Shown here piece by piece: positions 2,739 through 52,630 of a DNA stretch of 64,000 nucleotides. How positions within the stretch are numbered: the first letter of the stretch is position 1; the number at the start of each line of letters is the position of its first letter. The DNA lies in contig JAGYIF010000004.1 in NCBI GenBank assembly GCA_018402735.1, forward strand, positions 37,669-101,668, in the 5' to 3' direction. The notes beneath the pieces were generated by a model. It made no database searches and had not been told where the DNA came from. It worked only from the letters and a program-made list of their open reading frames with translations. The position numbers were made by a program, and so were the translations under genes. The stretch comes from Pelagibacteraceae bacterium (lineage in GTDB: Bacteria; Pseudomonadota; Alphaproteobacteria; Pelagibacterales; Pelagibacteraceae).

Positions 2739-4699
2739 TATTTTCCTAAAATTTCTTTTGCCTGCTGGACTATATTATTACTAGTTAATTTAAAATGTTC
2801 ATATATTTTTTTATAGGGAGCACTTTTTCCAAAACTATCGATACCTAGCTCCCTTCCTTCATTTCCAGTATATTTTTTCCATCCCATAGTAGAGGCGGCC
2901 TCTATAGAAATTTTTGTAGTTGTTTCGTTTAGAATTTTGTTTTTATAAAATTCTGATTGTTGATCAAACAGTTCTTGGCAGGGCATAGAAATAACTTTGC
3001 AATAAATTTTGTTTCTAACTAACTCATGACTTGCTTCAATTGCTATTTCTACTTCTGATCCTGTTGCAATTAGAGTTAGATCTATTGTTGAATTCGTTCG
3101 AAGAATTTCATAAGCACCAAACGAACATTTATTTTCTTTATTAAATTCTTTTCGTACAGGAATTAAATTTTGCCTAGTAAGAGACAGGACACTCGGAGTT
3201 TTTTTTTGTTGTAACGCCAACTCCCAACATTCAATAGTTTCGGTAGTATCAGCTGGCCTAAACACATTCAGGTTTGGTATAGCTCTTAACCCAGCGAGTT
3301 GTTCTATAGGTTGATGGGTTGGCCCATCCTCACCAAGACCGATGGAATCGTGAGTCATTACGTATACCACTCTTTGCTTCATTAAAGCAGATAACCTGAT
3401 AGCTGGTTTACAATAGTCGCTAAAAATTAAAAAAGTTCCACCATATGGAATTAAATTATCGTGCAAAGCAATTCCGTTCATGATGGCGGCCATAGCATGT
3501 TCTCGGACTCCGTAATGAATATAAGTTCCAGAAAAATCTCCTGGTTTAATAATTTTTTGACTTTTTGTTTTAGTGTTGTTGGATCCAGCCAGGTCCGCAG
3601 ATCCTCCAATCAGCTCTGATATTTCTGTGGTTAATAACGTTAGAATATCTTCCGAAGATTTTCTAGTAGCTGTTGGTTTTGCATCTTTAACAGCAGTAAT
3701 TTTTGCATTTGTAAAAATATTATTGAGTAGTTTTGAATTATCTTGAGATAATTTATTTATTTTATTACCTGCTTTTTTTTGCCATTGTAATCTTGATTTT
3801 TTCCCCTGTTCACCAATCGCTCTCCAAGCACTTAATATTTCTTTTGGTATATCAAATGGGGCATGTTTCCATTTTAATTTTTTTCTTACTAAATTAATCT
3901 CATCTTCACCAAGCGGGCTTCCATGAACAGAAGACGTTCCTGATTTGTTAGGAGACCCAAATCCAATAACAGTTTTACACGAAATGACCGTTGGTTTTTT
4001 TGCTTTTTGAGTTTTTTTTATGGCTTTAAATATTTGTTTTTCATTGTGACCGTTTATATCGATGTACTCCCAGCCATATGCTTCAAATCTTTTTTTATAA
4101 TTATCAGAAACAGCAAGGCTTGTTGGACCATCAATAGAGACGGAGTTATTATCAAAAAACATGATTAAATTTCTTAGTTTTAAGTGACCAGCCAAACTTA
4201 AAGCTTCGTGACTTATTCCTTCCATAAGACAGCCATCGCCAGCAATCACATACGTTTTGTGGTCATAAATATCTTTACCTTTTTTTGCTTTTAATATTTG
4301 TTCAGAAATTGCAAAGCCAACAGCATTTGCAATACCTTGTCCCAAAGGACCAGTGGTTGTTTCAATACCCGTGCCCTGTTCATATTCAGGATGACCAGCA
4401 CAAATAGAATCTAATTGCCTAAAATTTTTAATGTCTTCTAGAGAAACACTTTTGTAGCCAGTTAAATATAAAAGAGAGTATAGCAGCATTGAGCCGTGAC
4501 CAGCAGACAAAACGAATCGATCTCGATTAATCCATTCCGGATCACTTGGATCAAATTTTAAAAAATACTTGAATAGTACAGCGCATACATCCGCCATTCC
4601 CATGGGCATTCCAGGGTGACCAGAATTTGCTTTTTGCACAGCATCTATTGATAAAAAACGAATTGCATTTGCAATATCGGCGTGGGTAACTTTTTTCAT
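2738..4699 (-). CDS. tkt: Transketolase
   Basis: SGHPGMPMG, GDGCLMEG, YGVREHAM and GEDGPTHQP motifs. Confidence 0.98.
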   Translation of the reverse strand: MKKVTHADIANAIRFLSIDAVQKANSGHPGMPMGMADVCAVLFKYFLKFDPSDPEWINRDRFVLSAGHGSMLLYSLLYLTGYKSVSLEDIKNFRQLDSICAGHPEYEQGTGIETTTGPLGQGIANAVGFAISEQILKAKKGKDIYDHKTYVIAGDGCLMEGISHEALSLAGHLKLRNLIMFFDNNSVSIDGPTSLAVSDNYKKRFEAYGWEYIDINGHNEKQIFKAIKKTQKAKKPTVISCKTVIGFGSPNKSGTSSVHGSPLGEDEINLVRKKLKWKHAPFDIPKEILSAWRAIGEQGKKSRLQWQKKAGNKINKLSQDNSKLLNNIFTNAKITAVKDAKPTATRKSSEDILTLLTTEISELIGGSADLAGSNNTKTKSQKIIKPGDFSGTYIHYGVREHAMAAIMNGIALHDNLIPYGGTFLIFSDYCKPAIRLSALMKQRVVYVMTHDSIGLGEDGPTHQPIEQLAGLRAIPNLNVFRPADTTETIECWELALQQKKTPSVLSLTRQNLIPVRKEFNKENKCSFGAYEILRTNSTIDLTLIATGSEVEIAIEASHELVRNKIYCKVISMPCQELFDQQSEFYKNKILNETTTKISIEAASTMGWKKYTGNEGRELGIDSFGKSAPYKKIYEHFKLTSNNIVQQAKEILGK

Positions 4700-4786
4700 T
4701 AAAACCTTTTTAGACTTTGCTTCTCGAAATTAATAATACTTTGTTATATAAATAAAAAGATAAATAAATAATAGATAATAGAATAA

Positions 4787-5227
4787 ATGAATAAGCTTAA
4801 AGACAAAGAAGAGCACCTCTTTAATTCACTGTCCAAATTGGATTCAATTAGCGATTTAGTTCATAATTCAAAAAAAAAGATTGTAGATCTTGAACAATTA
4901 AAATTAGATTTGGAGCAGGAAAAATCAAGTTTACGTTTAAAGTTATCCACACTTGAGACAGAAAACATTTCTTTGAAACAAAATTTACAAAATCTTCATG
5001 ATAAAGTTAATTTAGAAGATAAATCTTCACTCAATTTAAGATCTAAAATTGAAGAAATTGAAAGTGAAAATATAAAATTAAAAAACGAAATTTTGTCGAT
5101 GGAAAGAGATCTTCAAAATTCAAGGTACCAATTAGCAGAAGCAAAAGAACGAAAAGAAGCGGTAGTGAAAAAAATTGATGAGCTCAGTCAAGAAACGGAC
5201 GAACTATTGGATGGTCAGCCATGGTAA
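4787..5227 (+). CDS. Coiled-coil protein upstream of zapA (ZauP/DUF4164-like position)
   Basis: Heptad-rich L/E/K sequence overlapping the zapA start; same position as Caulobacter zauP. Confidence 0.6.
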   Translation: MNKLKDKEEHLFNSLSKLDSISDLVHNSKKKIVDLEQLKLDLEQEKSSLRLKLSTLETENISLKQNLQNLHDKVNLEDKSSLNLRSKIEEIESENIKLKNEILSMERDLQNSRYQLAEAKERKEAVVKKIDELSQETDELLDGQPW

Positions 5228-5649
5228 ATGTAAACGTACGTTTTAATGGTAGGGATTATTTATTGGCTTGTGAAGATGGACAAGAGCAAGAATTAGAAAA
5301 GCTAACGATAGAACTTAATAAAAAATACGAACAATTAAAATCAGATCTTGGAAATCTTGGAGAAGGAAAATTATTACTAATTACCGCAATTCAAGTTGTA
5401 GATGAAGTTTACACTTTGAAAGCAAGTTTGGAAAAATTCAAACAGCACAACAAAGAGTTGGAAGCAAAATTTAAAGAAATTAAAGATTTATCTATTCAGT
5501 ATAAAAATGACAGAGATAGAGAAGTAAGAAATTTAAATGAAGAATTGGCAAATCTTAAAGCTATGATTTCTCAAAATGAAAATAGTTATTCCGAGGTATT
5601 AACCAAAGTTAACAATTCAATTAATAATTTTTTATCCAAAGCTAATTAG
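5221..5649 (+). CDS. zapA: Cell division protein ZapA
   Basis: N-terminal VNVRFNGRDYLLACEDGQE and LLLITAIQVVDE; synteny with ygfA. Confidence 0.88.
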   Translation: MVNVNVRFNGRDYLLACEDGQEQELEKLTIELNKKYEQLKSDLGNLGEGKLLLITAIQVVDEVYTLKASLEKFKQHNKELEAKFKEIKDLSIQYKNDRDREVRNLNEELANLKAMISQNENSYSEVLTKVNNSINNFLSKAN

Positions 5650-5654
5650 CTTTA

Positions 5655-6200
5655 ATGAAAGATAAGCTAAGAAAAAAGTTTAGTAAGTTGCGTGGAAAAA
5701 AATACGCAGAATTAACAGAATCGCAAATTAGCATCATTGTTTCTTTCTTATTTAAAATTATCAAGCGGCATAAAATTAAAACAATAGGAGCGTACCAACC
5801 TATTAATTTTGAACTTAATATGAATCCGGTCCTGCAAATATTAAAAAAAAAATATACAATCGCTCTACCTGTAGTTCTTAAAAAAAATAAAATGGAATTT
5901 AAAGTATGGAATGAACATGAGCCACTTTATGTAAATAAATTTGGAATTTTGGAACCATCTTTAAAAAACAAAAAAATTATTCCTCAATTATTTTTAACAC
6001 CATTACTTGCTTTTGATTCGAACTTTAACCGTCTTGGTTATGGCAGGGGCTATTATGATAGATATCTATCTAAAAATAAAAAATTTTTAACTTTTGGAGT
6101 AGCTTTTTCGTTTCAACAAACAAAAGCAATTCCTGTTAACAAAGACGACGTTCCGTTAAAAGGAATTATTACTGAGCAAGGCAGTATTATTAAAGAATGA
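5655..6200 (+). CDS. ygfA: 5-formyltetrahydrofolate cyclo-ligase
   Basis: PLLAFD...RLGYGRGYYDR motif. Confidence 0.93.
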   Translation: MKDKLRKKFSKLRGKKYAELTESQISIIVSFLFKIIKRHKIKTIGAYQPINFELNMNPVLQILKKKYTIALPVVLKKNKMEFKVWNEHEPLYVNKFGILEPSLKNKKIIPQLFLTPLLAFDSNFNRLGYGRGYYDRYLSKNKKFLTFGVAFSFQQTKAIPVNKDDVPLKGIITEQGSIIKE

Positions 6201-7006
6201 ATTTTTTGTTTTTAGGCGACATCATGGGCAGAGCTGGAAGAAATGTAGTTATTGATAAGTTGCCAGATATTATCAAGACACGCAACATAGATTTTGTAAT
6301 TGCCAATGGAGAAAATGCAGCTGGTGGTTATGGAATTACGCAAGCTATTTGTGAAGAGCTATTCGCAGTTGGTGTTGATGTCATTACTACCGGAAACCAT
6401 ATTTGGGATCAAAAAGAAACAATAGATTTTATTGCAAAAGAAAAAAGATTGTTACGTCCGTGGAATTATGGAGAAGGAACCCCAGGAAATGGATTTGAAA
6501 TTTACGAAAATAATAATTGTAAAATTGGAGTGATGAATTTAATGGGCAATGTATATATGAAAAAAAATACAGATCCCGTCTTTCCTTTTATAGAAAAAAA
6601 AATGAAGAAAATTATTTTAAAAAAAGATTTAGATTTTTTATTTGTAGACATTCATGCTGAGATAACGAGCGAAAAACAAGCCATGGGTTATTTTTTAGAC
6701 GGAAAAGCTACCTTAGTTGTGGGTACCCATACCCATACTCCAACAGCAGATTTTAGAATATTAGAAAATGGAACCGCATATCAAACTGATGCTGGTATGT
6801 GTGGAGATTATAATTCAATAATAGGAATGGAAAGCGATAAAGCTTTAAAACGTTTTTTCACGCAAGAAAGAACTGAAAGATTAAGCCCGGCTAATGGAGA
6901 AGCAACTTTATCTGGAGTTGTGGTTGTAGGTGACATTGATACAGGACTAGCAAAAAAAATTGAACCTATTATTATTGGCGGACGTCTAACAAATAAATTT
7001 ACATAA
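6197..7006 (+). CDS. ymdB: YmdB/TIGR00282 metallophosphoesterase
   Basis: GDIMG, NGENAAGG, TTGNH, DIHAEITSEK and VGTHTH motifs. Confidence 0.93.
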   Translation: MNFLFLGDIMGRAGRNVVIDKLPDIIKTRNIDFVIANGENAAGGYGITQAICEELFAVGVDVITTGNHIWDQKETIDFIAKEKRLLRPWNYGEGTPGNGFEIYENNNCKIGVMNLMGNVYMKKNTDPVFPFIEKKMKKIILKKDLDFLFVDIHAEITSEKQAMGYFLDGKATLVVGTHTHTPTADFRILENGTAYQTDAGMCGDYNSIIGMESDKALKRFFTQERTERLSPANGEATLSGVVVVGDIDTGLAKKIEPIIIGGRLTNKFT

Positions 7007-7007
7007 C

Positions 7008-7757
7008 ATGGCAGGTCATTCGCATTGGGCAGGTATTAAGCACAAAAAAGGAAAAGCAGATAAACAACGTTCCAAGTTATTTTCTAAATTAAGCAGAGAA
7101 ATAACGGTCTCAGCCAGATTGGGACTTCCTGAGGTTGATTTTAATCCAAGATTAAGATCTGCAGTTCAGGCTGCACGCGAAGCCAACATGCCAAAAGATA
7201 ATATTGTAAGAGCAATTAAAAAAGCACAAGGTCCAAATGACGATGCTAATTATGAAAAAAGTCAATATGAAGGATTTGGACCGGGAGGAGTTGCTTTTAT
7301 TATTGAAGCATTAACAGATAATAAAAATAGAACAGTTACTAACCTAAGAATTTTATTTGAAAAAAGTGGTTCTTCTCTAGGTGTAGAAGGTTCTGTTTCG
7401 TATCAGTTCGAAGAAATGGGTCAAATCAAAATTAGAAAAGAATTAATTTCTGAAGAGGAGGTATTTGCGCTTGCGTTAGAAGCGGGAGTAGAAGATTGTA
7501 TTAGTGGTGACAAATACCACGAAATTTTTTCTAAAAAAGAAAATTTTAATGATGTTAGAACCGTAGTAGAAAAAAAAATTAAAGATCTTAGTTTTGCTGG
7601 AATTATTTGGAAACCAAAGAATACAGTTTCAATTAATAAAGAAACATTTGAAAAAATTATCGATTTTATTGATTTGTTAGAAGATGATGAAGATGTTCAA
7701 AATGTTTATACAAATTTTGATGTGGATGAAAATATTTTAAAGGAGATGCAAGCTTGA
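7008..7757 (+). CDS. yebC: YebC/PmpR family protein
   Basis: MAGHSHWAGIKHKK, YEGFGPGG and DDEDVQNVYTN motifs. Confidence 0.96.
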   Translation: MAGHSHWAGIKHKKGKADKQRSKLFSKLSREITVSARLGLPEVDFNPRLRSAVQAAREANMPKDNIVRAIKKAQGPNDDANYEKSQYEGFGPGGVAFIIEALTDNKNRTVTNLRILFEKSGSSLGVEGSVSYQFEEMGQIKIRKELISEEEVFALALEAGVEDCISGDKYHEIFSKKENFNDVRTVVEKKIKDLSFAGIIWKPKNTVSINKETFEKIIDFIDLLEDDEDVQNVYTNFDVDENILKEMQA

Positions 7758-8251
7758 TCGTATTTGGAATAGATCCAGGAGTAAGTGGAGCTATCAGTGT
7801 ATTTGAAAATAAAAAAATTATCACATTTTTTGATATGCCGACGATGATTGAAGGTAAAAAAAATAAGAGACAGGTCAATGCCGCTCAGTTAGCCCACGAA
7901 ATTAAATCTAGAATAACGGATCGTGAGGCAACCTCAGTTATTATAGAGCAGGTAAGTGCGATGCCAGGACAGGGCGTAACCAGCATGTTCAATTTCGGTC
8001 AATCTTTTGGCGTTATTAAAGGAATATGCTCAGCTCTTGGAATCTCTATTTATTTTATTAGACCAGTAAAATGGAAAAAGCATTTTAATTTAATAGGATC
8101 TGAAAAAGATGCTAGCAGAACCAAAGTGATTGAAATGTTTCCCGATTTATCACCTCAGTTAAATAAAAAAAAAGATTCTAACAAATCAGACGCTATTTTA
8201 ATTGGAAAGTATTTTGTAGATCATTATTCTAACGAAAGTTTTCATGGCTAA
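7754..8251 (+). CDS. RuvC-like Holliday junction resolvase (MOC1/phage-like subtype)
   Basis: GIDPG acidic motif, IEQV, WKKHF, KDASR..FP and terminal SDAILIG; occupies the ruvC position after yebC. Confidence 0.8.
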   Translation: MIVFGIDPGVSGAISVFENKKIITFFDMPTMIEGKKNKRQVNAAQLAHEIKSRITDREATSVIIEQVSAMPGQGVTSMFNFGQSFGVIKGICSALGISIYFIRPVKWKKHFNLIGSEKDASRTKVIEMFPDLSPQLNKKKDSNKSDAILIGKYFVDHYSNESFHG

Positions 8252-8672
8252 ATATTTTGAGCACAATGTTCGTGTTTACTATGAAGATACTGATGCTGGT
8301 GGAATTGTTTATTACGCAAATTATTTAAAATACTTAGAGCGGGCAAGAACTGAAATGATTTATAGTCTTGGCTTAAATCACAATATGCTAGTGGATAAAT
8401 ATGGATTTCAAATAGTAGTGTCCCATCTTGATATTGCTTTTAAAAAGTCAGCTCATTTTGAAGACTTTTTAATTATTAAAACGGAATTAAAGTACTTGTC
8501 GGCTATAAAATTGGGAATGAATCAAAAAGTGTTTAAAGTTGATTGCTGGACTGCAAAAAAATCAGAAGAACTCTTGGTTGGAGCAGAAATTATATTAGCA
8601 TGCGTTAATAAGCAGGGTAAGCCTAAAAAAATGCCTTTAGAGACCATGGATCTTTTCAAAAGTTGCCTTTAA
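8244..8672 (+). CDS. ybgC: Tol-pal-associated acyl-CoA thioesterase
   Basis: RVYYEDTDAGGIVYYANYLKYLERAR motif. Confidence 0.93.
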   Translation: MAKYFEHNVRVYYEDTDAGGIVYYANYLKYLERARTEMIYSLGLNHNMLVDKYGFQIVVSHLDIAFKKSAHFEDFLIIKTELKYLSAIKLGMNQKVFKVDCWTAKKSEELLVGAEIILACVNKQGKPKKMPLETMDLFKSCL

Positions 8673-47837: not shown

Positions 47838-49445
47838 TTAAAAACCTTTAAGAATATATTTTTTAGATAATAAAATAAAAATAGCAGAAAAAATAATTAA
47901 AAATAAACTAGGCCCAGCCGCATGTTCTAGCATATCTTGGGAGGCAAAGGTATAAGCTTGGGTTGCAAAGGTTTCAAAATTAAATGGTCGTAAGATAAGA
48001 GTGATGGGAAGTTCTTTTAAAATATCAATAGCAACTAACATAGCAATCAGTAACAAATTAGGTTGTAGAAATGGTAAATGAATTTTAATAAAAGTTCCAA
48101 ACTTAGTATAGCCTAGTAAATAGCTAGCATCATCAAGATTAGTATTTAGTTTTTCATAACCAGATTTAATCCCGTTAATAGCAAGAGAGTAAAAGCGAAC
48201 ACAATAAGCAATAACTAATCCTATAATTGAGCCAGAAAATAAAAAACTAATCCAATTACTATTCGTATACTCGGAGACAAACGATAGAAAACTAAGTAAG
48301 GTTACTGCTAAGATAACACCTGGTATGACGTAACCACTCACAGAAAAATTAGTTACCGCATTTAAAAATTTACTTTTAGATATTCGCATCCCATAGTTTG
48401 TAAAAAAAGCTAATGCAATTAAACATAAAGTGGTTAGGATAACGATGGATACTGTATTAACACTAAGCTCAATTAATTGGGCTAGATTTATATTATCTGG
48501 AAATTGTATAATCCAAAGTAGTATTTGTGAAATGGGAAATAAAAAAGAACAAGTAAATAATAGTAGACAAAAAGCAGATGCATAAGCAGCAGAAGCTCCT
48601 TGTAATTGTATTTTGTTAATTGCTTCATAGCCACGAGTTGGCATATAAAATTTAGATCTACTTCTTGACATTCGCTCTAACCAAAAAAATATTAAAACAA
48701 TCACAATTAGAAAAAAAGACAACTGGTACGCGGTTGCAATATCATCAAATATTATCCAGCTATCATAAATAGCGGTAGTTAAGGTTTGAATATTAAAAAA
48801 AGAAACAGTTCCAAAATCTGAAATTGACTCCATCGCAACTAGGGAAAGGCCCACTACAATCCCCGGACGAGCTGATGGAAAAATAATTTTCTTAAAGGTT
48901 TGGTAATTGCTAAACCCCATAATTTTACCAGCATCAACTAAGTTTTGGGACTGATAAATAAAACTGGCTCTGGTAATTAGATAGACATAGATAAATAAAG
49001 AAAAAGACATGGATAAGATGCTGCCCAGCAAACCATCTACTTTTGGAATTAGCGTGTGATAATCGGATGGTCCAAATAAATAGGTAAGAAATGAATATAA
49101 GTTACCAAAATAGCCAAAAAATGCAGTTAAAGAGTAAGCGTAGATATAACTTGGAACTGCAAAGGATAAAATAAGAGCCCAGGTAAAAAAAGTTGATCCA
49201 GGAAATTGGTAGAAGGAAGTAAGATAAGCAGCACCCACACCGAAGACAAAAGTAAGTATCAACACACCTGTTAAAACCAATAAGGTGTTGGCAATGTAAG
49301 TATATACATAAGTTTCTCTTAATAATTGGTAATAGCCAGACACGTCGTGAAATAAACTTGCGCCGATTACAATCAGCGGGATACAGACAAAGCAAGAAAT
49401 AAGCAGAGAACTGAGAAACCAGTAATTTATTTTAAAAGTATGCAT
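47838..49445 (-). CDS. fbpB: Fe3+ ABC transporter permease
   Basis: Duplicated BPD-transp domains; SDFGTV and KELPITLILRPFNFETFAT motifs. Confidence 0.9.
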   Translation of the reverse strand: MHTFKINYWFLSSLLISCFVCIPLIVIGASLFHDVSGYYQLLRETYVYTYIANTLLVLTGVLILTFVFGVGAAYLTSFYQFPGSTFFTWALILSFAVPSYIYAYSLTAFFGYFGNLYSFLTYLFGPSDYHTLIPKVDGLLGSILSMSFSLFIYVYLITRASFIYQSQNLVDAGKIMGFSNYQTFKKIIFPSARPGIVVGLSLVAMESISDFGTVSFFNIQTLTTAIYDSWIIFDDIATAYQLSFFLIVIVLIFFWLERMSRSRSKFYMPTRGYEAINKIQLQGASAAYASAFCLLLFTCSFLFPISQILLWIIQFPDNINLAQLIELSVNTVSIVILTTLCLIALAFFTNYGMRISKSKFLNAVTNFSVSGYVIPGVILAVTLLSFLSFVSEYTNSNWISFLFSGSIIGLVIAYCVRFYSLAINGIKSGYEKLNTNLDDASYLLGYTKFGTFIKIHLPFLQPNLLLIAMLVAIDILKELPITLILRPFNFETFATQAYTFASQDMLEHAAGPSLFLIIFSAIFILLSKKYILKGF

Positions 49446-49484
49446 GGTTTAATTAGGTGTGAGTATAAAATTGGTATGAACACT

Positions 49485-50501
49485 TTACCGCCAGCCTGCT
49501 TTTTTCATAATTGCTAAAGCTTGTGCCTGATTATTATAATAGGTTGCAACTGAAGTAGTGTCCTGCTTAAAGGACGTTCCAAAAGCAGCCATAATAGTAT
49601 TCGGCATAACTTGATCGATGATTGGATATTCAAATGAAGTATTAACTATATGTTGCTGCGCTTCTGTACTAAGTAAAAATTCTATAAAGCGAATAGCATG
49701 TTCTTTATTCGGGGCATATGCAGTAACACCAGCACCACTTATGTTCATATGAGTGCCTCTATTATTTTGATTAGGAAAAACTAGCTTTACTTTTTTTGCG
49801 GCTGCTTGTTGCTCCGGTCCTTTTTGGCCTGACAACATTAAGGAGAGATAATAAGAATTAGCAATAGCAATATCTGCCTTGCCGGCTGCAACCGCTAAAA
49901 TCTGGTCTCTATCATTACCCTCGGGGGCTCTAGCCATATTTTCAACTAATGCTTTTGCCCATTTAGAAGTTTGTTCTATTCCATTATTTTCAATTAAGGA
50001 GGCAACCCAGGATTTATTGTACGTGCTACTAGAAGAACGGATTACAATCTTTCCTTTGTAATTAGCAGATGCTAAATCTTCATAATTAAGTTGTTTTGCA
50101 ATAGTCTCAGATATTTTTTCTGGATTATAAAATATAATTCTAGCCCGTTTTGAAATGCCATACCAATAATCCGTTCGAAGATAGGCAGGAATTTTTTCTA
50201 TTAATAGAGGAGATGAAACTTTTTGAAAAATTCCCTTGCGTTGAGCTGCACCTAAATTACCAGCATCCACATCTATAAACACATCAGCTTGAGACCTGGT
50301 TCCTTCCGTGACAATTCTTTTTTCCAACGCTTTGGCATCTCCGCTAATCACATTGACTTTAATTCCAGTTTGTTTGGTAAACTTAGCGTAGAGTTCAACG
50401 TCTGAACTGTAGTGTCTTGCAGTAAACACATTAACTTCTGCAGCGTGAACGCTTGCAGTGCTTAAAGCGATAGTAAGCAATAGGATTATTTTTTTTAGCA
50501 T
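49485..50501 (-). CDS. fbpA: Fe3+ ABC transporter substrate-binding protein (FutA/FbpA)
   Basis: Signal peptide, TARHY, tandem Tyr in ANSYY, GTHMNISGA and FEYP motifs. Confidence 0.92.
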   Translation of the reverse strand: MLKKIILLLTIALSTASVHAAEVNVFTARHYSSDVELYAKFTKQTGIKVNVISGDAKALEKRIVTEGTRSQADVFIDVDAGNLGAAQRKGIFQKVSSPLLIEKIPAYLRTDYWYGISKRARIIFYNPEKISETIAKQLNYEDLASANYKGKIVIRSSSSTYNKSWVASLIENNGIEQTSKWAKALVENMARAPEGNDRDQILAVAAGKADIAIANSYYLSLMLSGQKGPEQQAAAKKVKLVFPNQNNRGTHMNISGAGVTAYAPNKEHAIRFIEFLLSTEAQQHIVNTSFEYPIIDQVMPNTIMAAFGTSFKQDTTSVATYYNNQAQALAIMKKAGWR

Positions 50502-50735: not shown

Positions 50736-51779
50736 ATGATACCGACAAAAACCTACGCAGCCTTAGATCCAAAAAAACCGTTAACCGCATTTACCATCCA
50801 GCGAAGAAAACCGGGAAAGAATGATGTACATATCAAAATTTTATTTTGTGGAATTTGCCATACGGATATTCACCAAGCACGTAATGAATGGGGCCATTCC
50901 ATATTTCCCATGGTTCCAGGGCATGAGATTGTTGGCCAAGTAGTAGCAGCTGGAGCTTCAGTTAAAAAATTTAAAAAGGGAGATTATGTAGGGGTCGGCT
51001 GTATGGTTGATTCATGCGGAACCTGCAAAGATTGTAAAGATCATGTCGAGCAATTTTGTAATACTGTGTCGTACACCTACAACAGCCAAGATCCAAAAAC
51101 GAAAGAAGTAACTTATGGTGGTTATGCAGACTCAATCGTTGTTAATCAAAAATTTGTATTGAGAGTTTCTAAAACAGCAAAGTTAGCAGCAGTTGCTCCT
51201 TTGTTGTGTGCAGGCATTACGACTTATTCTCCACTTAAAAAATGGAAGGTTCAACCAGGACAAAAAGTAGGAGTGGTTGGACTGGGAGGACTTGGTCATA
51301 TGGCGGTTAAAATTGCTAAAGCAATGAAAGCACATGTAGTTGTATTCACGACATCTAACAATAAATCAGCAGATGCAAAAAGACTTGGAGCAAAAGAAGT
51401 AATTATTTCTAACAATGCTAACGAAATGGCAAAGCATGCTTTAAGTTTTGATTTTATTTTAGATACGGTTGCAGCATCTCATGACATTGATCAATATTTA
51501 AACTTATTAAAAAGAGATGGAACCATGTGTTTAGTTGGAGTACCGAATGCTCCGCATCCAGCAGTTAACCCTGGAAACTTAGTATTAAAAAGAAGACAAC
51601 TAGTAGGTTCTTTAATCGGCGGAATTAAAGAAACACAAGAAATGTTAGATTTTTGTGCAAAGCATAAGATTGTCTCTGATATTGAAACTATACCAATAAA
51701 TTATATCAATACGGCCTATGAGCGTATGCTTAAAAGTGATGTGAAGTATCGTTTTGTCATCGATATGCAAACGATTTAG
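50736..51779 (+). CDS. Zn-dependent NAD(P) alcohol dehydrogenase (YahK / cinnamyl-alcohol type)
   Basis: CGICHTD, GHEIVG, structural Zn Cys cluster, CAGITTYSPL and GLGGLGH motifs. Confidence 0.93.
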   Translation: MIPTKTYAALDPKKPLTAFTIQRRKPGKNDVHIKILFCGICHTDIHQARNEWGHSIFPMVPGHEIVGQVVAAGASVKKFKKGDYVGVGCMVDSCGTCKDCKDHVEQFCNTVSYTYNSQDPKTKEVTYGGYADSIVVNQKFVLRVSKTAKLAAVAPLLCAGITTYSPLKKWKVQPGQKVGVVGLGGLGHMAVKIAKAMKAHVVVFTTSNNKSADAKRLGAKEVIISNNANEMAKHALSFDFILDTVAASHDIDQYLNLLKRDGTMCLVGVPNAPHPAVNPGNLVLKRRQLVGSLIGGIKETQEMLDFCAKHKIVSDIETIPINYINTAYERMLKSDVKYRFVIDMQTI

Positions 51780-51838: not shown

Positions 51839-51874
51839 TTGACTAGGTACAAAGTGTTATGTTATAACATAACA
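51839..51874 (+). promoter_or_regulatory. zur promoter with a perfect 20-bp Zur-type palindrome
   Basis: TTGACT(51839)-18-TATAAC(51863); TGTTATGTTA/TAACATAACA at 51855-51874 ends 1 nt before the ATG. Confidence 0.85.
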
Positions 51875-51875
51875 T

Positions 51876-52241
51876 ATGAACAATACTGATATGGTTCTTA
51901 ATATTATTAAGCAATCATCACAACCATTAACTGCTTATGCAATTTTAGAATTGTGTAAAAAAAAGAAAAAAGTTCAGGCAATGACTATTTATAGAGCGTT
52001 GAACAATTTGATGGATAAGGGTGTCATTCATAAATCTAATCAACACAAAACTTTTTTGTTATGCAATCATAATCATAACAAAGCGCATAATCCAGCAATC
52101 GCTATTTGTAAAAAGTGTGGTGATAGTGAGGAACTTAAATCAGAGTTATTTACTAATTTGTTAAAAAAAATTCCTTTAAAAAAGTACTCTTTTTCAAGTT
52201 ATGAAGTAGAAGTTGCAACCGTTTGCAGAGGTTGCGCATAA
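51876..52241 (+). CDS. zur: Fur-family regulator, Zur type
   Basis: PLTAYAIL, TIYRAL, CNHNH, CKKCG and terminal CRGC; Zur-like operator upstream. Confidence 0.85.
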   Translation: MNNTDMVLNIIKQSSQPLTAYAILELCKKKKKVQAMTIYRALNNLMDKGVIHKSNQHKTFLLCNHNHNKAHNPAIAICKKCGDSEELKSELFTNLLKKIPLKKYSFSSYEVEVATVCRGCA

Positions 52242-52630
52242 TGGAGCATACACACCAACTTCCTGAATTTTTGCATTTTGTCCTAGAAATAGATTGGTTA
52301 CGAGGATTTATTTTTGGTTTTGTCCATACCATTATTCCGTTAGTCGGTTTTTATTCTGGCTGGAGTATCAATCGTTTTTTAAAATTTGCATCGAATGGTT
52401 ATGTAGCTGGAATTTTTGGCGTGGTGGTTGCGCATGTTATAGCAGATTTTATTGCATCCGTCCTCGACCCGAATTTGCGGTCAGCTGCTTTCGGTATTGT
52501 CTTAGGAGGGTTAATTCCTTTAGCATTTATTCCTATTCTTGATAAATATATTGTTAAATCCAAACACCACATTGTAGTTGGTGATCACGAAGATATTAAA
52601 AAAGATCTAAAAGACGATCATCAGCATTAA
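52241..52630 (+). CDS. His-rich hypothetical membrane protein (about 3 TM) coupled to zur
   Basis: TAATG stop/start overlap with zur; 129 aa with 10 His; three hydrophobic segments. Confidence 0.75.
   Translation: MEHTHQLPEFLHFVLEIDWLRGFIFGFVHTIIPLVGFYSGWSINRFLKFASNGYVAGIFGVVVAHVIADFIASVLDPNLRSAAFGIVLGGLIPLAFIPILDKYIVKSKHHIVVGDHEDIKKDLKDDHQH

What the first reader, a model, noticed from the sequence alone, without database searches (positions are those of the whole stretch)
51839..52630. Zur operon with an unknown His-rich 3-TM protein in place of znuABC: candidate new zinc transporter
Seen: a perfect 20-bp palindrome TGTTATGTTATAACATAACA overlaps the -10 and ends 1 nt before zur. zur overlaps (TAATG) a 129-aa ORF with about three TM segments and 10 His. 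Two His lie inside TM segments (FGFVHT, VAHVIAD), and both termini carry His clusters (MEHTH; KHH..DH..DHQH). No znuABC is nearby. Established: Zur boxes have a TGTTAT..ATAACA core, and proteobacterial zur usually sits with znuCB/znuA. Inference: this autoregulated operon encodes a minimal Zn (or other metal) uptake or handling protein. From memory, its helix pattern resembles small VIT1/TMEM65-like 3-TM proteins with the D/N ligands replaced by His; that resemblance is unverified.
Basis: partly seen in the sequence, partly recalled or inferred. Interest (0 to 1): 0.75.

Follow-up and report, generated by a model that had tools for sequence, protein, structure and literature searches.

The report
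Zinc-regulated mini transporter replacing ZnuABC
A SAR11-type ocean bacterium with no known zinc importer carries, under a zinc-repressor switch, a 129-residue three-helix membrane protein related to human TMEM65 but with histidines at the ion-binding positions; it sits exactly where sister genomes carry the ZnuABC zinc pump, so it is probably a new kind of bacterial zinc importer.

Summary
A perfect 20-bp palindrome (51855-51874) is unique in the 1.32-Mb genome. It is followed by a 121-aa Zur-like gene and, through a TAATG overlap, by a 129-aa, 3-TM, 10-His protein ("X").

X matches no curated family and no solved fold. Profile-profile comparison joins it (99.0-99.5%) to prokaryotic members of Pfam TMEM65 (PF10507). 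X has His where TMEM65 has the TM1 Asp (human D132) and the TM2 Asn. It keeps the TM2 Asp (human D167).

Genomic evidence points to zinc uptake:
- Among 151 family genomes, 50 have intact X and 73 have ZnuA; none has both.
- Of 58 high-quality genomes, 57 have exactly one of the two.
- In five genera zur-X and znuACB cassettes alternate, at the same chromosomal site in four; in the fifth a 25-codon X remnant follows znuA.
- Both cassettes carry Zur boxes.
- Elsewhere X sits beside a TonB-dependent receptor with a His-rich stretch, or beside COG0523 GTPases.

Best reading (about 0.6): a Zur-repressed, oligomeric His/Asp-lined Zn2+ importer. Function is untested. An earlier scan note on other DNA (e1-4740792) describes a similar small His-rich membrane protein behind a TonB-dependent receptor.

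The parts
51839..51844 (+). -35-like hexamer TTGACT of the zur-X promoter
   Evidence: Read. A TTGACA/TTGACT hexamer lies 16-18 nt upstream of the TATAAC inside the box in most X-type loci examined, from several genera. The strict consensus scan does not call this promoter, because the -10 ends in C. Inference.
51855..51874 (.). Zur operator: perfect 20-bp palindrome TGTTATGTTATAACATAACA. It can be read as two overlapping 7-1-7 Zur boxes offset by 5 bp (1-15 TGTTATG-T-TATAACA; 6-20 TGTTATA-A-CATAACA).
   Evidence: Unique in the window and in the genome. An identical or 1-mismatch copy lies 0-5 nt before the zur ATG in loci from at least five genera, including the zur-znuACB locus of G037. The related box GTTATATTATAAC lies in the znuA-znuC intergenic regions.
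51860..51868 (+). TG-extended -10-like element TGTTATAAC, inside the operator
   Evidence: Sequence; position conserved. The ATG starts 8 nt after the -10, so the zur mRNA is probably leaderless or nearly so (inference).
51876..52241 (+). zur: minimal 121-aa Fur-family zinc uptake regulator. It keeps the CxxC...CxxC structural site (C78, C81, C117, C120) and a Cys/His-rich sensing stretch (C63, H65, H67, H71).
   Evidence: Pfam FUR 33.5 bits, over the cut-off. NCBIfam best hit Zur, 60 bits. PDB best hits 7dh7 (deposited as 'transcriptional regulator fur family', 46 bits) and E. coli Zur 4mtd (44 bits), against Fur at 22 bits. Orthologue with 71% identity heads znuACB in G037.
52241..52630 (+). 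X: 129-aa His-substituted TMEM65-superfamily 3-TM membrane protein, the candidate Zn2+ importer. Its start overlaps the zur stop (TAATG).
52247..52276 (+). N-terminal periplasmic segment with the H3-x-H5 and H12 motif (EHTHQLPEFLH)
   Evidence: H3 and H5 are invariant, and H12 at least 90% conserved, among 24 SAR11-type homologues. They are lost in more distant family members. Paralogues and orthologues with a cleavable signal peptide place this end in the periplasm.
52292..52357 (+). TM1 (residues 18-39) with H29 (codon 52325-52327), at the position of the TMEM65-family Asp (human D132)
   Evidence: AF2 helix, pLDDT 90-94. H29 is kept in every full-length X homologue examined. It aligns with the D of the FGxVDN motif. 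The human motif was read from the mutagenesis primers in PMC12830682.
52400..52465 (+). TM2 (residues 54-75) with a glycine zipper, H65 (52433-52435) and D69 (52445-52447). H65 aligns with the TMEM65-family Asn, and D69 with the family Asp (human D167).
   Evidence: (D69 is invariant across all 57 superfamily sequences).
52478..52555 (+). TM3 (residues 80-105), conserved G85-I-V-L-G-G...P93...P98
52556..52627 (+). Cytoplasmic C-terminal tail KSKHHIVVGDHEDIKKDLKDDHQH (His/Asp/Glu/Lys-rich)
   Evidence: H110, G114, D115, H116 and D118 are invariant and H109 nearly so. The tail is kept in other alphaproteobacterial families, except in G472. Low pLDDT suggests it is flexible. A remnant of this tail survives after znuA in G064.

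Best explanation
The region is a two-gene, self-repressed zinc-starvation operon.

Regulation. When zinc is sufficient, Zur binds the 20-bp palindrome, which covers the spacer, the -10 element and the transcription start. This blocks RNA polymerase. When zinc is scarce, Zur falls off. A probably leaderless mRNA is then made, and zur and X are translated as a coupled pair (TAATG).

The protein. X is a 3-TM inner-membrane protein with its N-terminus in the periplasm and its C-terminus in the cytoplasm. It belongs to the TMEM65 (PF10507) superfamily of small cation transporters. It most likely assembles into homo-oligomers, and into X1/X2 hetero-oligomers where two tandem copies exist.

The transport path. 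The mid-membrane residues H29 (TM1), H65 and D69 (TM2) would form a Zn2+-selective His/Asp site. This replaces the Asp/Asn/Asp site that TMEM65 proteins need for Ca2+ extrusion. Zn2+ would be captured by the periplasmic HxH end, passed through this site, and released to the His/Asp-rich cytoplasmic tail. The driving force would be the membrane potential or ion exchange.

Role. X thus does the job of ZnuABC with 129 residues instead of about 900.

Shown: the sequence features, the homology, the operator conservation, and the mutual exclusion and locus replacement with znuACB.
Inferred: repression by Zur, oligomerisation, the metal, and the direction of transport.
For: Regulator and operator:
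- Zur is the best match in NCBIfam and among named PDB chains.
- The palindrome is unique in the genome.
- It is conserved letter for letter before zur in several genera.
- A one-mismatch copy of the box precedes zur-znuACB in G037, where Zur is 71% identical.
- Related 7-1-7 boxes lie between znuA and znuC in sister genomes.

Functional replacement:
- In 151 Pelagibacteraceae-type genomes, 50 have intact X and 73 have ZnuA over the Pfam cut-off. None has both.
- Of 58 genomes at least 90% complete, 23 + 34 = 57 have exactly one. In genus g9 the count is 4 + 17 = 21 of 21.
- Both states occur within five genera.
- zur-X and znu cassettes lie between the same flanking genes in g9 and g13, share both outer flanking genes in g5 (where the znu locus carries a few extra genes), and share the downstream flank in g1.
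- G064 keeps the last 25 codons of X directly after the znuA stop.
- The ZnuA proteins of these cassettes carry long His/Asp/Glu loops.
- The own genome lacks ZnuA, ZnuB and ZIP. Hogle et al. 2016 found no known Zn importer in half of SAR11 genomes (PMC4771312).

Other zinc contexts:
- zur-X1-X2, then a PF03640 secreted protein, then COG0523 in G068.
- X plus two COG0523 genes with Zur boxes in G472.
- A TonB-dependent receptor with a His-rich stretch ends 23 nt upstream of X in G204.
- Five X-carrying genomes of other families lack ZnuA and ZIP, although 78% of 401 alphaproteobacterial genomes have a ZnuA-family protein.

Transporter nature:
- hhalign of X against D/N-type 3-TM proteins gives 99.5%, E 5.6e-23.
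- hhalign against 20 proteins that all hit PF10507 gives 99.0%, E 6.9e-18.
- H29 aligns with human D132 and D69 with human D167, both required for TMEM65 activity. The same paper cites liposome reconstitution of TMEM65 transport (PMC12830682).
- D69 is invariant across 57 superfamily sequences.
- H29, H65 and D69 are kept in all full-length X homologues examined.

Topology:
- Signal-peptide-bearing versions exist.
- Lys/Arg residues sit in loop 1 and in the C-terminal tail.
Against:
- X does not reach any Pfam or NCBIfam threshold.
- Only a monomer could be modelled (pLDDT 71-75). No coordinates were available to check that H29, H65 and D69 face one another.
- Whether human TMEM65 is itself the transporter or a regulator of NCLX is still debated (PMC13483046).
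- A small secondary carrier would have to work at picomolar free zinc, where ABC systems are the usual answer.
- Some lineages (G014, G158, G342, G336) carry X without an adjacent zur or a recognisable box.
- One incomplete genome (G336) has both X and a weak ZnuA-family hit.
- Related genomes are not independent samples.
Confidence: 0.6

Rival explanations
1. X is a Zur-controlled membrane protein that does not carry zinc across the membrane itself. It could be an accessory, a chaperone or a regulator. For example, its His-rich ends might hand zinc to, or gate, another unidentified or low-specificity permease. This would parallel the view that TMEM65 only regulates NCLX.
For: The TMEM65 debate is summarised in PMC13483046. 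X has conserved His-rich, flexible termini. A 3-TM monomer cannot form a pathway alone. X is often found with other zinc-handling partners such as COG0523, a TonB-dependent receptor or PF03640.
Against: The most strongly conserved residues are polar ones buried mid-membrane (H29, H65, D69), not only the tails. X replaces the whole znuACB cassette, permease included, and the genome has no ZnuB, ZIP or other recognised zinc permease for it to assist. PMC12830682 cites reconstitution data for TMEM65 transport.
Confidence: 0.15
2. The operon handles another divalent metal (Mn2+, Fe2+, Co2+ or Ni2+). The Fur-family regulator would then be a Mur/Nur-type sensor rather than Zur.
For: Pfam's only hit for X is a weak, sub-threshold match to the Mn exporter family MntP (E 1e-3, 19 bits against a cut-off of 24.4), and JGI names some homologues MntP. 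Cluster A-I binding proteins of the ZnuA Pfam family can be Mn- or Fe-specific. Fur-family metal specificity cannot be read safely from sequence. Hogle et al. also caution that SAR11 ZnuA substrates are untested.
Against: The regulator scores far better against Zur than against Fur or PerR. The operator has the GTTAT..ATAAC Zur-box core (from my knowledge of the E. coli Zur box), not a Fur or Mur box. The alternative cassette encodes ZnuA with long His-rich loops, which I recall as typical of zinc-specific members. COG0523 neighbours point to zinc. His2Asp ligand sets favour Zn2+.
Confidence: 0.1
3. X exports or sequesters zinc or another cation (efflux or detoxification), as TMEM65 extrudes Ca2+. 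The mutual exclusion with ZnuABC would then reflect different zinc regimes rather than equivalent function.
For: TMEM65 mediates efflux from the mitochondrial matrix. There is a weak MntP (exporter) similarity. Some Zur proteins also activate efflux genes (my recollection, from Xanthomonas).
Against: The operator overlaps the -10 and the start site, which is the geometry of repression, so X would be made when zinc is scarce. X occupies the place of an importer cassette under the same kind of box. X-only genomes would then have no zinc importer at all. X is found behind a TonB-dependent receptor, an uptake device. TMEM65 has its N-terminus in the matrix, whereas X has its N-terminus outside. 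In the protein's own frame, N-side to C-side transport is therefore import for X.
Confidence: 0.05

Closest known systems
TMEM65 family (Pfam PF10507, formerly DUF2453): human mitochondrial TMEM65 and its roughly 90-aa prokaryotic members
   Same: Same 3-TM core with a glycine zipper in TM2. Homology holds over all three helices (hhalign 99.0-99.5%). The invariant TM2 Asp (human D167, X D69) and the Asp-Pro at the end of TM2 are shared. A cation transport role is reported for TMEM65.
   Different: X does not hit the PF10507 model at all. The TM1 Asp-Asn is His-Thr/Val/Ser. The TM2 Gly-Asn is Ala/Ser-His. X adds a periplasmic HxH end and a conserved His/Asp cytoplasmic tail. It is under Zur control. 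The predicted substrate is Zn2+ rather than Ca2+/Na+. Its topology appears inverted relative to human TMEM65, whose N-terminus is in the matrix.
ZnuABC, the Zur-regulated high-affinity zinc ABC importer
   Same: Same regulatory logic (Zur box, with zur in or beside the operon). Same chromosomal slot in sister genomes. Strictly alternative distribution.
   Different: No sequence or architectural relation. ZnuABC is a three-protein, ATP-driven system of about 900 residues with a periplasmic binding protein. X is one 129-aa membrane protein with no ATPase.
ZIP/ZupT and CDF-type secondary zinc transporters
   Same: Predicted working principle: His/Asp ligands inside transmembrane helices, His-rich flexible segments, and oligomeric assembly.
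   Different: No homology. There is no PF02535 hit in the protein or the genome and no Foldseek match. ZIP proteins have 8 TM helices and CDF proteins 6 per subunit, against 3 here.
MntP (PF02659, LysE superfamily Mn2+ exporter)
   Same: A weak local similarity over TM1-TM2 (E 1e-3). MntP is built from 3-TM repeat units.
   Different: The score is below the curated cut-off (19.2 against 24.4 bits). The match covers only 48 residues. The family's own acidic TM motifs were not examined. This is the source of the misleading 'MntP' labels in JGI annotations.
E. coli Zur and its znuA/znuCB operator (PDB 4mtd)
   Same: The regulator aligns with E. coli Zur over residues 31-146. The operator shares the TGTTAT..ATAACA half-sites. 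Two overlapping boxes suggest binding by two dimers, as I recall for the E. coli operator.
   Different: The regulator is only 121 aa and lacks the N-terminal extension. The boxes overlap by 10 bp in a perfect 20-mer. No second site stands out in the own genome, where near-matches to the core are fewer than chance predicts. The regulator is placed first in the operon on a probably leaderless transcript.

Membership tests
TMEM65 / PF10507 | Scores over the curated Pfam gathering threshold (25 bits) | tested here: not met
   No PF10507 hit for X even at E<=1. The bridging D/N-type relatives score 11.7-25.3 bits.
TMEM65 / PF10507 | Homology of the whole 3-TM core to family members | tested here: met
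   hhalign of A1 (X family) against A3 (20 proteins, all hitting PF10507) gives 99.0%, E 6.9e-18, over 91 columns. Against A2 it gives 99.5%, E 5.6e-23.
TMEM65 / PF10507 | Three TM helices with a glycine-rich TM2 | tested here: met
   AF2 helices at 18-39, 54-75 and 80-105, with pLDDT about 90 in the helices. G53xxxG57xxG60 is conserved.
TMEM65 / PF10507 | TM1 motif F-G-x-x-D-N (human D132, required for activity) | tested here: not met
   X has F-G-F-V-H29-T30. His is kept in all full-length X homologues examined. The human motif was read from primers in PMC12830682.
TMEM65 / PF10507 | TM2 motif G-N-x-x-S-D (human D167, required for activity) | tested here: inconclusive
   X has A-H65-V-I-A-D69. 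The Asp is kept and is invariant across 57 sequences. The Asn is replaced by His.
TMEM65 / PF10507 | Na+-dependent Ca2+ extrusion | not testable with these tools
   Needs transport assays.
Zur regulon (Zur-repressed zinc acquisition genes) | Zur-type operator overlapping the promoter | tested here: met
   The palindrome covers the -10 and the start site. The same or a related box precedes true znu genes in sister genomes.
Zur regulon (Zur-repressed zinc acquisition genes) | A Zur orthologue is present | tested here: met
   All scores are well below NCBIfam's equivalog cut-off (60 against 167 bits), so this is a divergent, shortened Zur.
Zur regulon (Zur-repressed zinc acquisition genes) | Induction by zinc depletion and binding of Zur to the site | not testable with these tools
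Needs EMSA and RNA work.
MntP / PF02659 | Scores over the curated threshold (24.4 bits) across the domain | tested here: not met
   19.2 bits, covering residues 22-69 only.
   No Pfam or NCBIfam hit. Foldseek against the PDB gave nothing below E 0.2 with either model. The top hits are the unrelated 3-TM subunit PsaL, with TM-scores below 0.5. PDB sequence search was empty.

The most novel reading that the evidence does not exclude
X founds a new class of minimal bacterial zinc importers: about 125 residues, 3 TM helices, oligomeric, with a His2Asp filter. The class was derived from the TMEM65 cation-transporter fold by swapping two ion ligands to histidine.

It would be the sole zinc entry route in roughly 40% of SAR11 genomes, and so in a large share of ocean bacterioplankton.

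The natural ligand swap would also mark the positions of human D132, N163 and D167 as the ion-selectivity site of TMEM65. That would support the view that TMEM65 proteins are transporters in their own right.
Probability: 0.5. Interest if true: 0.85.

Novelty: new variant of a known kind. Interest (0 to 1): 0.8.

Why it matters
SAR11 bacteria are among the most abundant organisms in the sea. A published survey (PMC4771312) found a recognisable zinc importer, ZnuABC, in only half of their genomes, and no ZIP, NRAMP or Feo systems. How the other half acquires zinc was left unexplained.

This locus offers a concrete, testable answer. It is a 390-bp gene that alternates with the 2.7-kb znuACB cassette at the same site, under the same type of switch. 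If confirmed, three things follow:
- A new transporter family is added to bacterial zinc homeostasis.
- There is a marker for reading zinc limitation in ocean metagenomes and metatranscriptomes. The family has more than 2,300 clusters at 90% identity, and some are seen on more than 100 contigs.
- It is a clear example of genome streamlining.

It also bears on an open question in mitochondrial biology. A natural TMEM65 relative has its two ion-ligand positions changed to zinc-preferring histidines and is wired to a zinc sensor. That is evolutionary evidence that these residues bind the transported ion.

Tried and rejected
- VIT1/CCC1, ZIP, NiCoT and CDF were rejected. There is no Pfam or NCBIfam hit and no Foldseek hit with two AF2 models.
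- MntP was rejected as a family assignment. The hit is sub-threshold and covers 48 residues only.
- PDB sequence searches with the X profile and the D/N-type profile found nothing. No TMEM65-like structure was found in the PDB copy by sequence or by fold.
- I looked for further Zur sites in the genome. The 12-bp core ATGTTATAACAT is unique. One-mismatch hits (5) are fewer than chance predicts (16.6). No wider regulon is evident.
- The strict sigma-70 scan does not call the promoter, because the -10 ends in C.
- No convincing intrinsic terminator follows X. The only hairpin has a z-score of -0.28.
- ZepA, a Zur-regulated cyanobacterial exoprotein (PMC10957091), was checked and is unrelated.
- No paper links TMEM65/DUF2453 to bacterial zinc uptake.
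- Two TMEM65 papers (PMC12768467, PMC12087536) are not held.
- Natural 6-TM fusions of X were sought among the representatives and none was seen.
- Model coordinates are not exposed, so distances between ligands could not be measured.
Full report
**1. Observation**

All stated features are present at the stated places.
- The perfect palindrome TGTTATGTTATAACATAACA lies at 51855-51874.
- One base later, at 51876, zur starts (121 aa, ending 52241).
- Its TAA stop shares an A with the ATG of a 129-aa ORF, here called X (52241-52630).
- X has exactly 10 His. Two lie inside predicted helices (H29 in FGFVHT, H65 in VAHVIAD). The others cluster at both ends.

The palindrome is not a chance event.
- It occurs once in the window, against 0.02 expected.
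- It occurs once in the 1.32-Mb, 35% G+C, 96.8%-complete genome, against 2e-5 expected from composition.
- The next-best sites have at least 4 mismatches.

**2. The regulator and its operator**

The 121-aa protein passes Pfam FUR.
- It scores best against Zur in NCBIfam: 60 bits, against 35 for Fur.
- Among solved structures its best hits are 7dh7, deposited only as a 'transcriptional regulator fur family' (46 bits), and E. coli Zur 4mtd (44 bits). The best Fur scores 22 bits.
- It is a shortened Zur that keeps the two CxxC pairs and a Cys/His-rich stretch.
- A second, canonical Fur is encoded elsewhere in the genome.

The 20-mer can be read as two overlapping 7-1-7 boxes offset by 5 bp.
- In X-type loci from several genera, the identical or a one-mismatch 20-mer lies 0-5 nt before the zur ATG.
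- In most of them a TTGACA/TTGACT hexamer lies 16-18 nt upstream of the TG-TATAAC inside the box.
- The operator therefore covers the -10 and the start site, which is the geometry of a repressor. The zur mRNA should be leaderless or nearly so. Both points are inference.

The box is tied to zinc by two observations.
- In the complete genome G037 (same genus), a one-mismatch copy of the box and a 71%-identical Zur head a znuA-znuC-znuB operon.
- In other znu-type loci, one or two copies of GTTATATTATAAC lie between znuA and znuC.

In the own genome the 12-bp core is unique, and near-matches are fewer than chance predicts. This Zur therefore seems to control only its own operon.

**3. What X is**

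X reaches no threshold in Pfam or NCBIfam. The only hit is a weak local match to MntP.

It has more than 2,300 relatives at 90% clustering. Almost all are marine and SAR11-like. They are variously labelled hypothetical, MntP or ClcA.

A search of 1.84 billion representatives found only 179 proteins. The distant ones are 3-TM proteins of about 90 aa with the motifs FGxVDN, GNTxSD, DP and GCLIP.
- X against this set gives 99.5% (E 5.6e-23) in profile-profile comparison.
- Many of these proteins are Pfam TMEM65 (PF10507) members.
- X against 20 such members gives 99.0% (E 6.9e-18) over all three helices.

In these alignments:
- H29 stands where the family has Asp.
- T30 stands where the family has Asn.
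- H65 stands where the family has Asn.
- D69 stands where the family has its invariant Asp. D69 is invariant in all 57 aligned sequences.

The mutagenesis primers printed in PMC12830682 show that human D132 lies in GFGFLDNA and D167 in LGNLVSDLAG. H29 therefore corresponds to D132, and D69 to D167. Both are required for TMEM65-dependent Ca2+ extrusion.

One metagenomic protein (P0227) is intermediate. It has Asp in TM1, His in TM2 and a His-rich loop.

AlphaFold2 gives three confident helices and flexible ends. Foldseek finds no solved relative.

Topology is N-out, C-in.
- Several orthologues and paralogues carry a signal peptide in front of the HxH segment.
- The Lys/Arg residues sit in loop 1 and in the tail.

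**4. Evidence for function**

Distribution in 151 genomes of the family:
- 50 have an intact X.
- 73 have ZnuA over the Pfam cut-off.
- None has both. The two apparent overlaps are an X remnant in G064 and a sub-threshold ZnuA hit in G095.
- Of 58 genomes at least 90% complete, 23 + 34 = 57 have exactly one. The single exception, G017, has neither, and no zur.
- In genus g9 the split is 4 + 17 = 21 of 21.
- Both states occur within genera g1, g4, g5, g9 and g13.

The two systems are alleles of one site.
- In g9 and g13, zur-X and the znuA/znuCB-zur' cassette lie between the same flanking genes, which are 79-98% identical. In g5 the two loci share both outer flanking genes, with a few extra genes on the znu side.
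- In g1 both are followed by the same opuAC, permease and nuclease genes.
- In g4, G064 retains the last 25 codons of X (KSRYHTVVGDHDDLKKDLKKKHR-stop) immediately after the znuA stop. This is a scar of replacement.

The ZnuA proteins have long His/Asp/Glu loops.

The own genome has no ZnuA, ZnuB or ZIP. This matches the published finding that half of SAR11 genomes lack any known zinc importer (PMC4771312).

Outside the family, X occurs in a few other small alphaproteobacterial genomes (11 of 401 sampled). Its contexts there are:
- directly behind a TonB-dependent receptor with a His-rich stretch (G204);
- between two COG0523 GTPase genes with Zur boxes (G472);
- next to a GSDH-type propeller (G446).

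In G068 and G075 the operon is zur-X1-X2. In G068 a PF03640 secreted protein and COG0523 follow. Tandem X1/X2 pairs argue for oligomers.

Five of the outside genomes lack ZnuA and ZIP. By contrast, 78% of alphaproteobacterial genomes have a ZnuA-family protein.

**5. Mechanism proposed**

- Zinc-loaded Zur occludes the promoter.
- On zinc depletion, zur and X are co-translated.
- X oligomerises through its glycine zipper.
- H29, H65 and D69 from two or more subunits form a tetrahedral Zn2+ site at mid-membrane.
- The periplasmic HxH segment feeds this site, and the cytoplasmic HH..GDHED tail receives the ion.

The steps shown are the sequence features, the homology, the conservation and the genomic replacement. 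The metal, the direction, the oligomeric state and the repression are inferred.

One point of consistency: human TMEM65 has its N-terminus in the matrix and exports Ca2+. X has its N-terminus outside. In the protein's own frame, both would move the ion from the N-side to the C-side.

**6. Rivals**

- Accessory or regulator rather than carrier: 0.15.
- Another metal: 0.10.
- Efflux or sequestration: 0.05.

Each is weighed in the Rival explanations section.

Weak points of the preferred reading:
- Only a monomer model is available.
- The role of TMEM65 itself is still debated.
- Some X genes have no zur or recognisable box nearby.

**7. Comparison and novelty**

X works like a ZIP- or CDF-style secondary zinc carrier and stands in for ZnuABC. 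By descent it is a divergent branch of the TMEM65 superfamily that fails the family's HMM and two of its three ligand signatures.

I found no paper describing a TMEM65-like zinc transporter, or this SAR11 gene.

I class it as a new variant of a known kind. Both the fold family and the concept of a Zur-regulated importer are known. The combination, the ligand swap and the ecological role are new.

I found the same arrangement in G204.

Noticed in passing
G061:C3:12473-12838 (not fetched as a locus): In this genome the zur gene next to an intact X carries four in-frame stops (3 TGA, 1 TAA). This looks like a decayed repressor beside a kept transporter, which would make X constitutive.
   Followed up: no
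L026 (G068:C6) 1764-2737: The COG0523 (CobW-type) GTPase downstream of zur-X1-X2-PF03640 is split into 89-aa and 195-aa ORFs. This is either a frameshift or pseudogene, or an assembly error.
   Followed up: partly
L023 (G014:C1) 4189-5839: In genus g15 many genomes have X but no detectable zur (6 of 20 have zur, against 15 of 20 with X). In G014, X follows a 416-aa MFS-type membrane protein with a 20-nt gap and no Zur box. X may be expressed differently there.
   Followed up: partly
L021 (G037:C1) 5672-6832: The ZnuA of G037 carries ten near-perfect tandem copies of HDDHKGHKE in its metal-binding loop. This is an unusually long repetitive His-rich insert.
   Followed up: no
P0274 (287 aa) and P0273 (233 aa): Some D/N-type TMEM65-like proteins have a fourth N-terminal helix and C-terminal extensions. 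One extension is an ankyrin-repeat domain. The function is unknown.
   Followed up: no
window 50736-51779: The gene immediately upstream of the zur promoter is a zinc-containing alcohol dehydrogenase (ADH_N + ADH_zinc_N). The flanking genes differ in other genera, so the adjacency is probably coincidental.
   Followed up: partly
window 47838-50501: A ferric-iron ABC permease (535 aa) and its periplasmic binding protein (338 aa) lie just upstream on the minus strand. Iron and zinc acquisition genes are therefore neighbours here.
   Followed up: no
L041 (G446:C24) 5374-6854 and L021 (G037) 7290-8354: A secreted GSDH-type (glucose/sorbosone dehydrogenase, PF07995) beta-propeller follows X in G446. 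A protein of similar size with a similar N-terminal sequence (not scanned against Pfam) precedes zur in G037. This may be a recurrent partner of the zinc locus.
   Followed up: partly
G017 (same genus, 99% complete): This is the only high-quality genome of the family sample with none of X, ZnuA or zur. How it obtains zinc is open.
   Followed up: no
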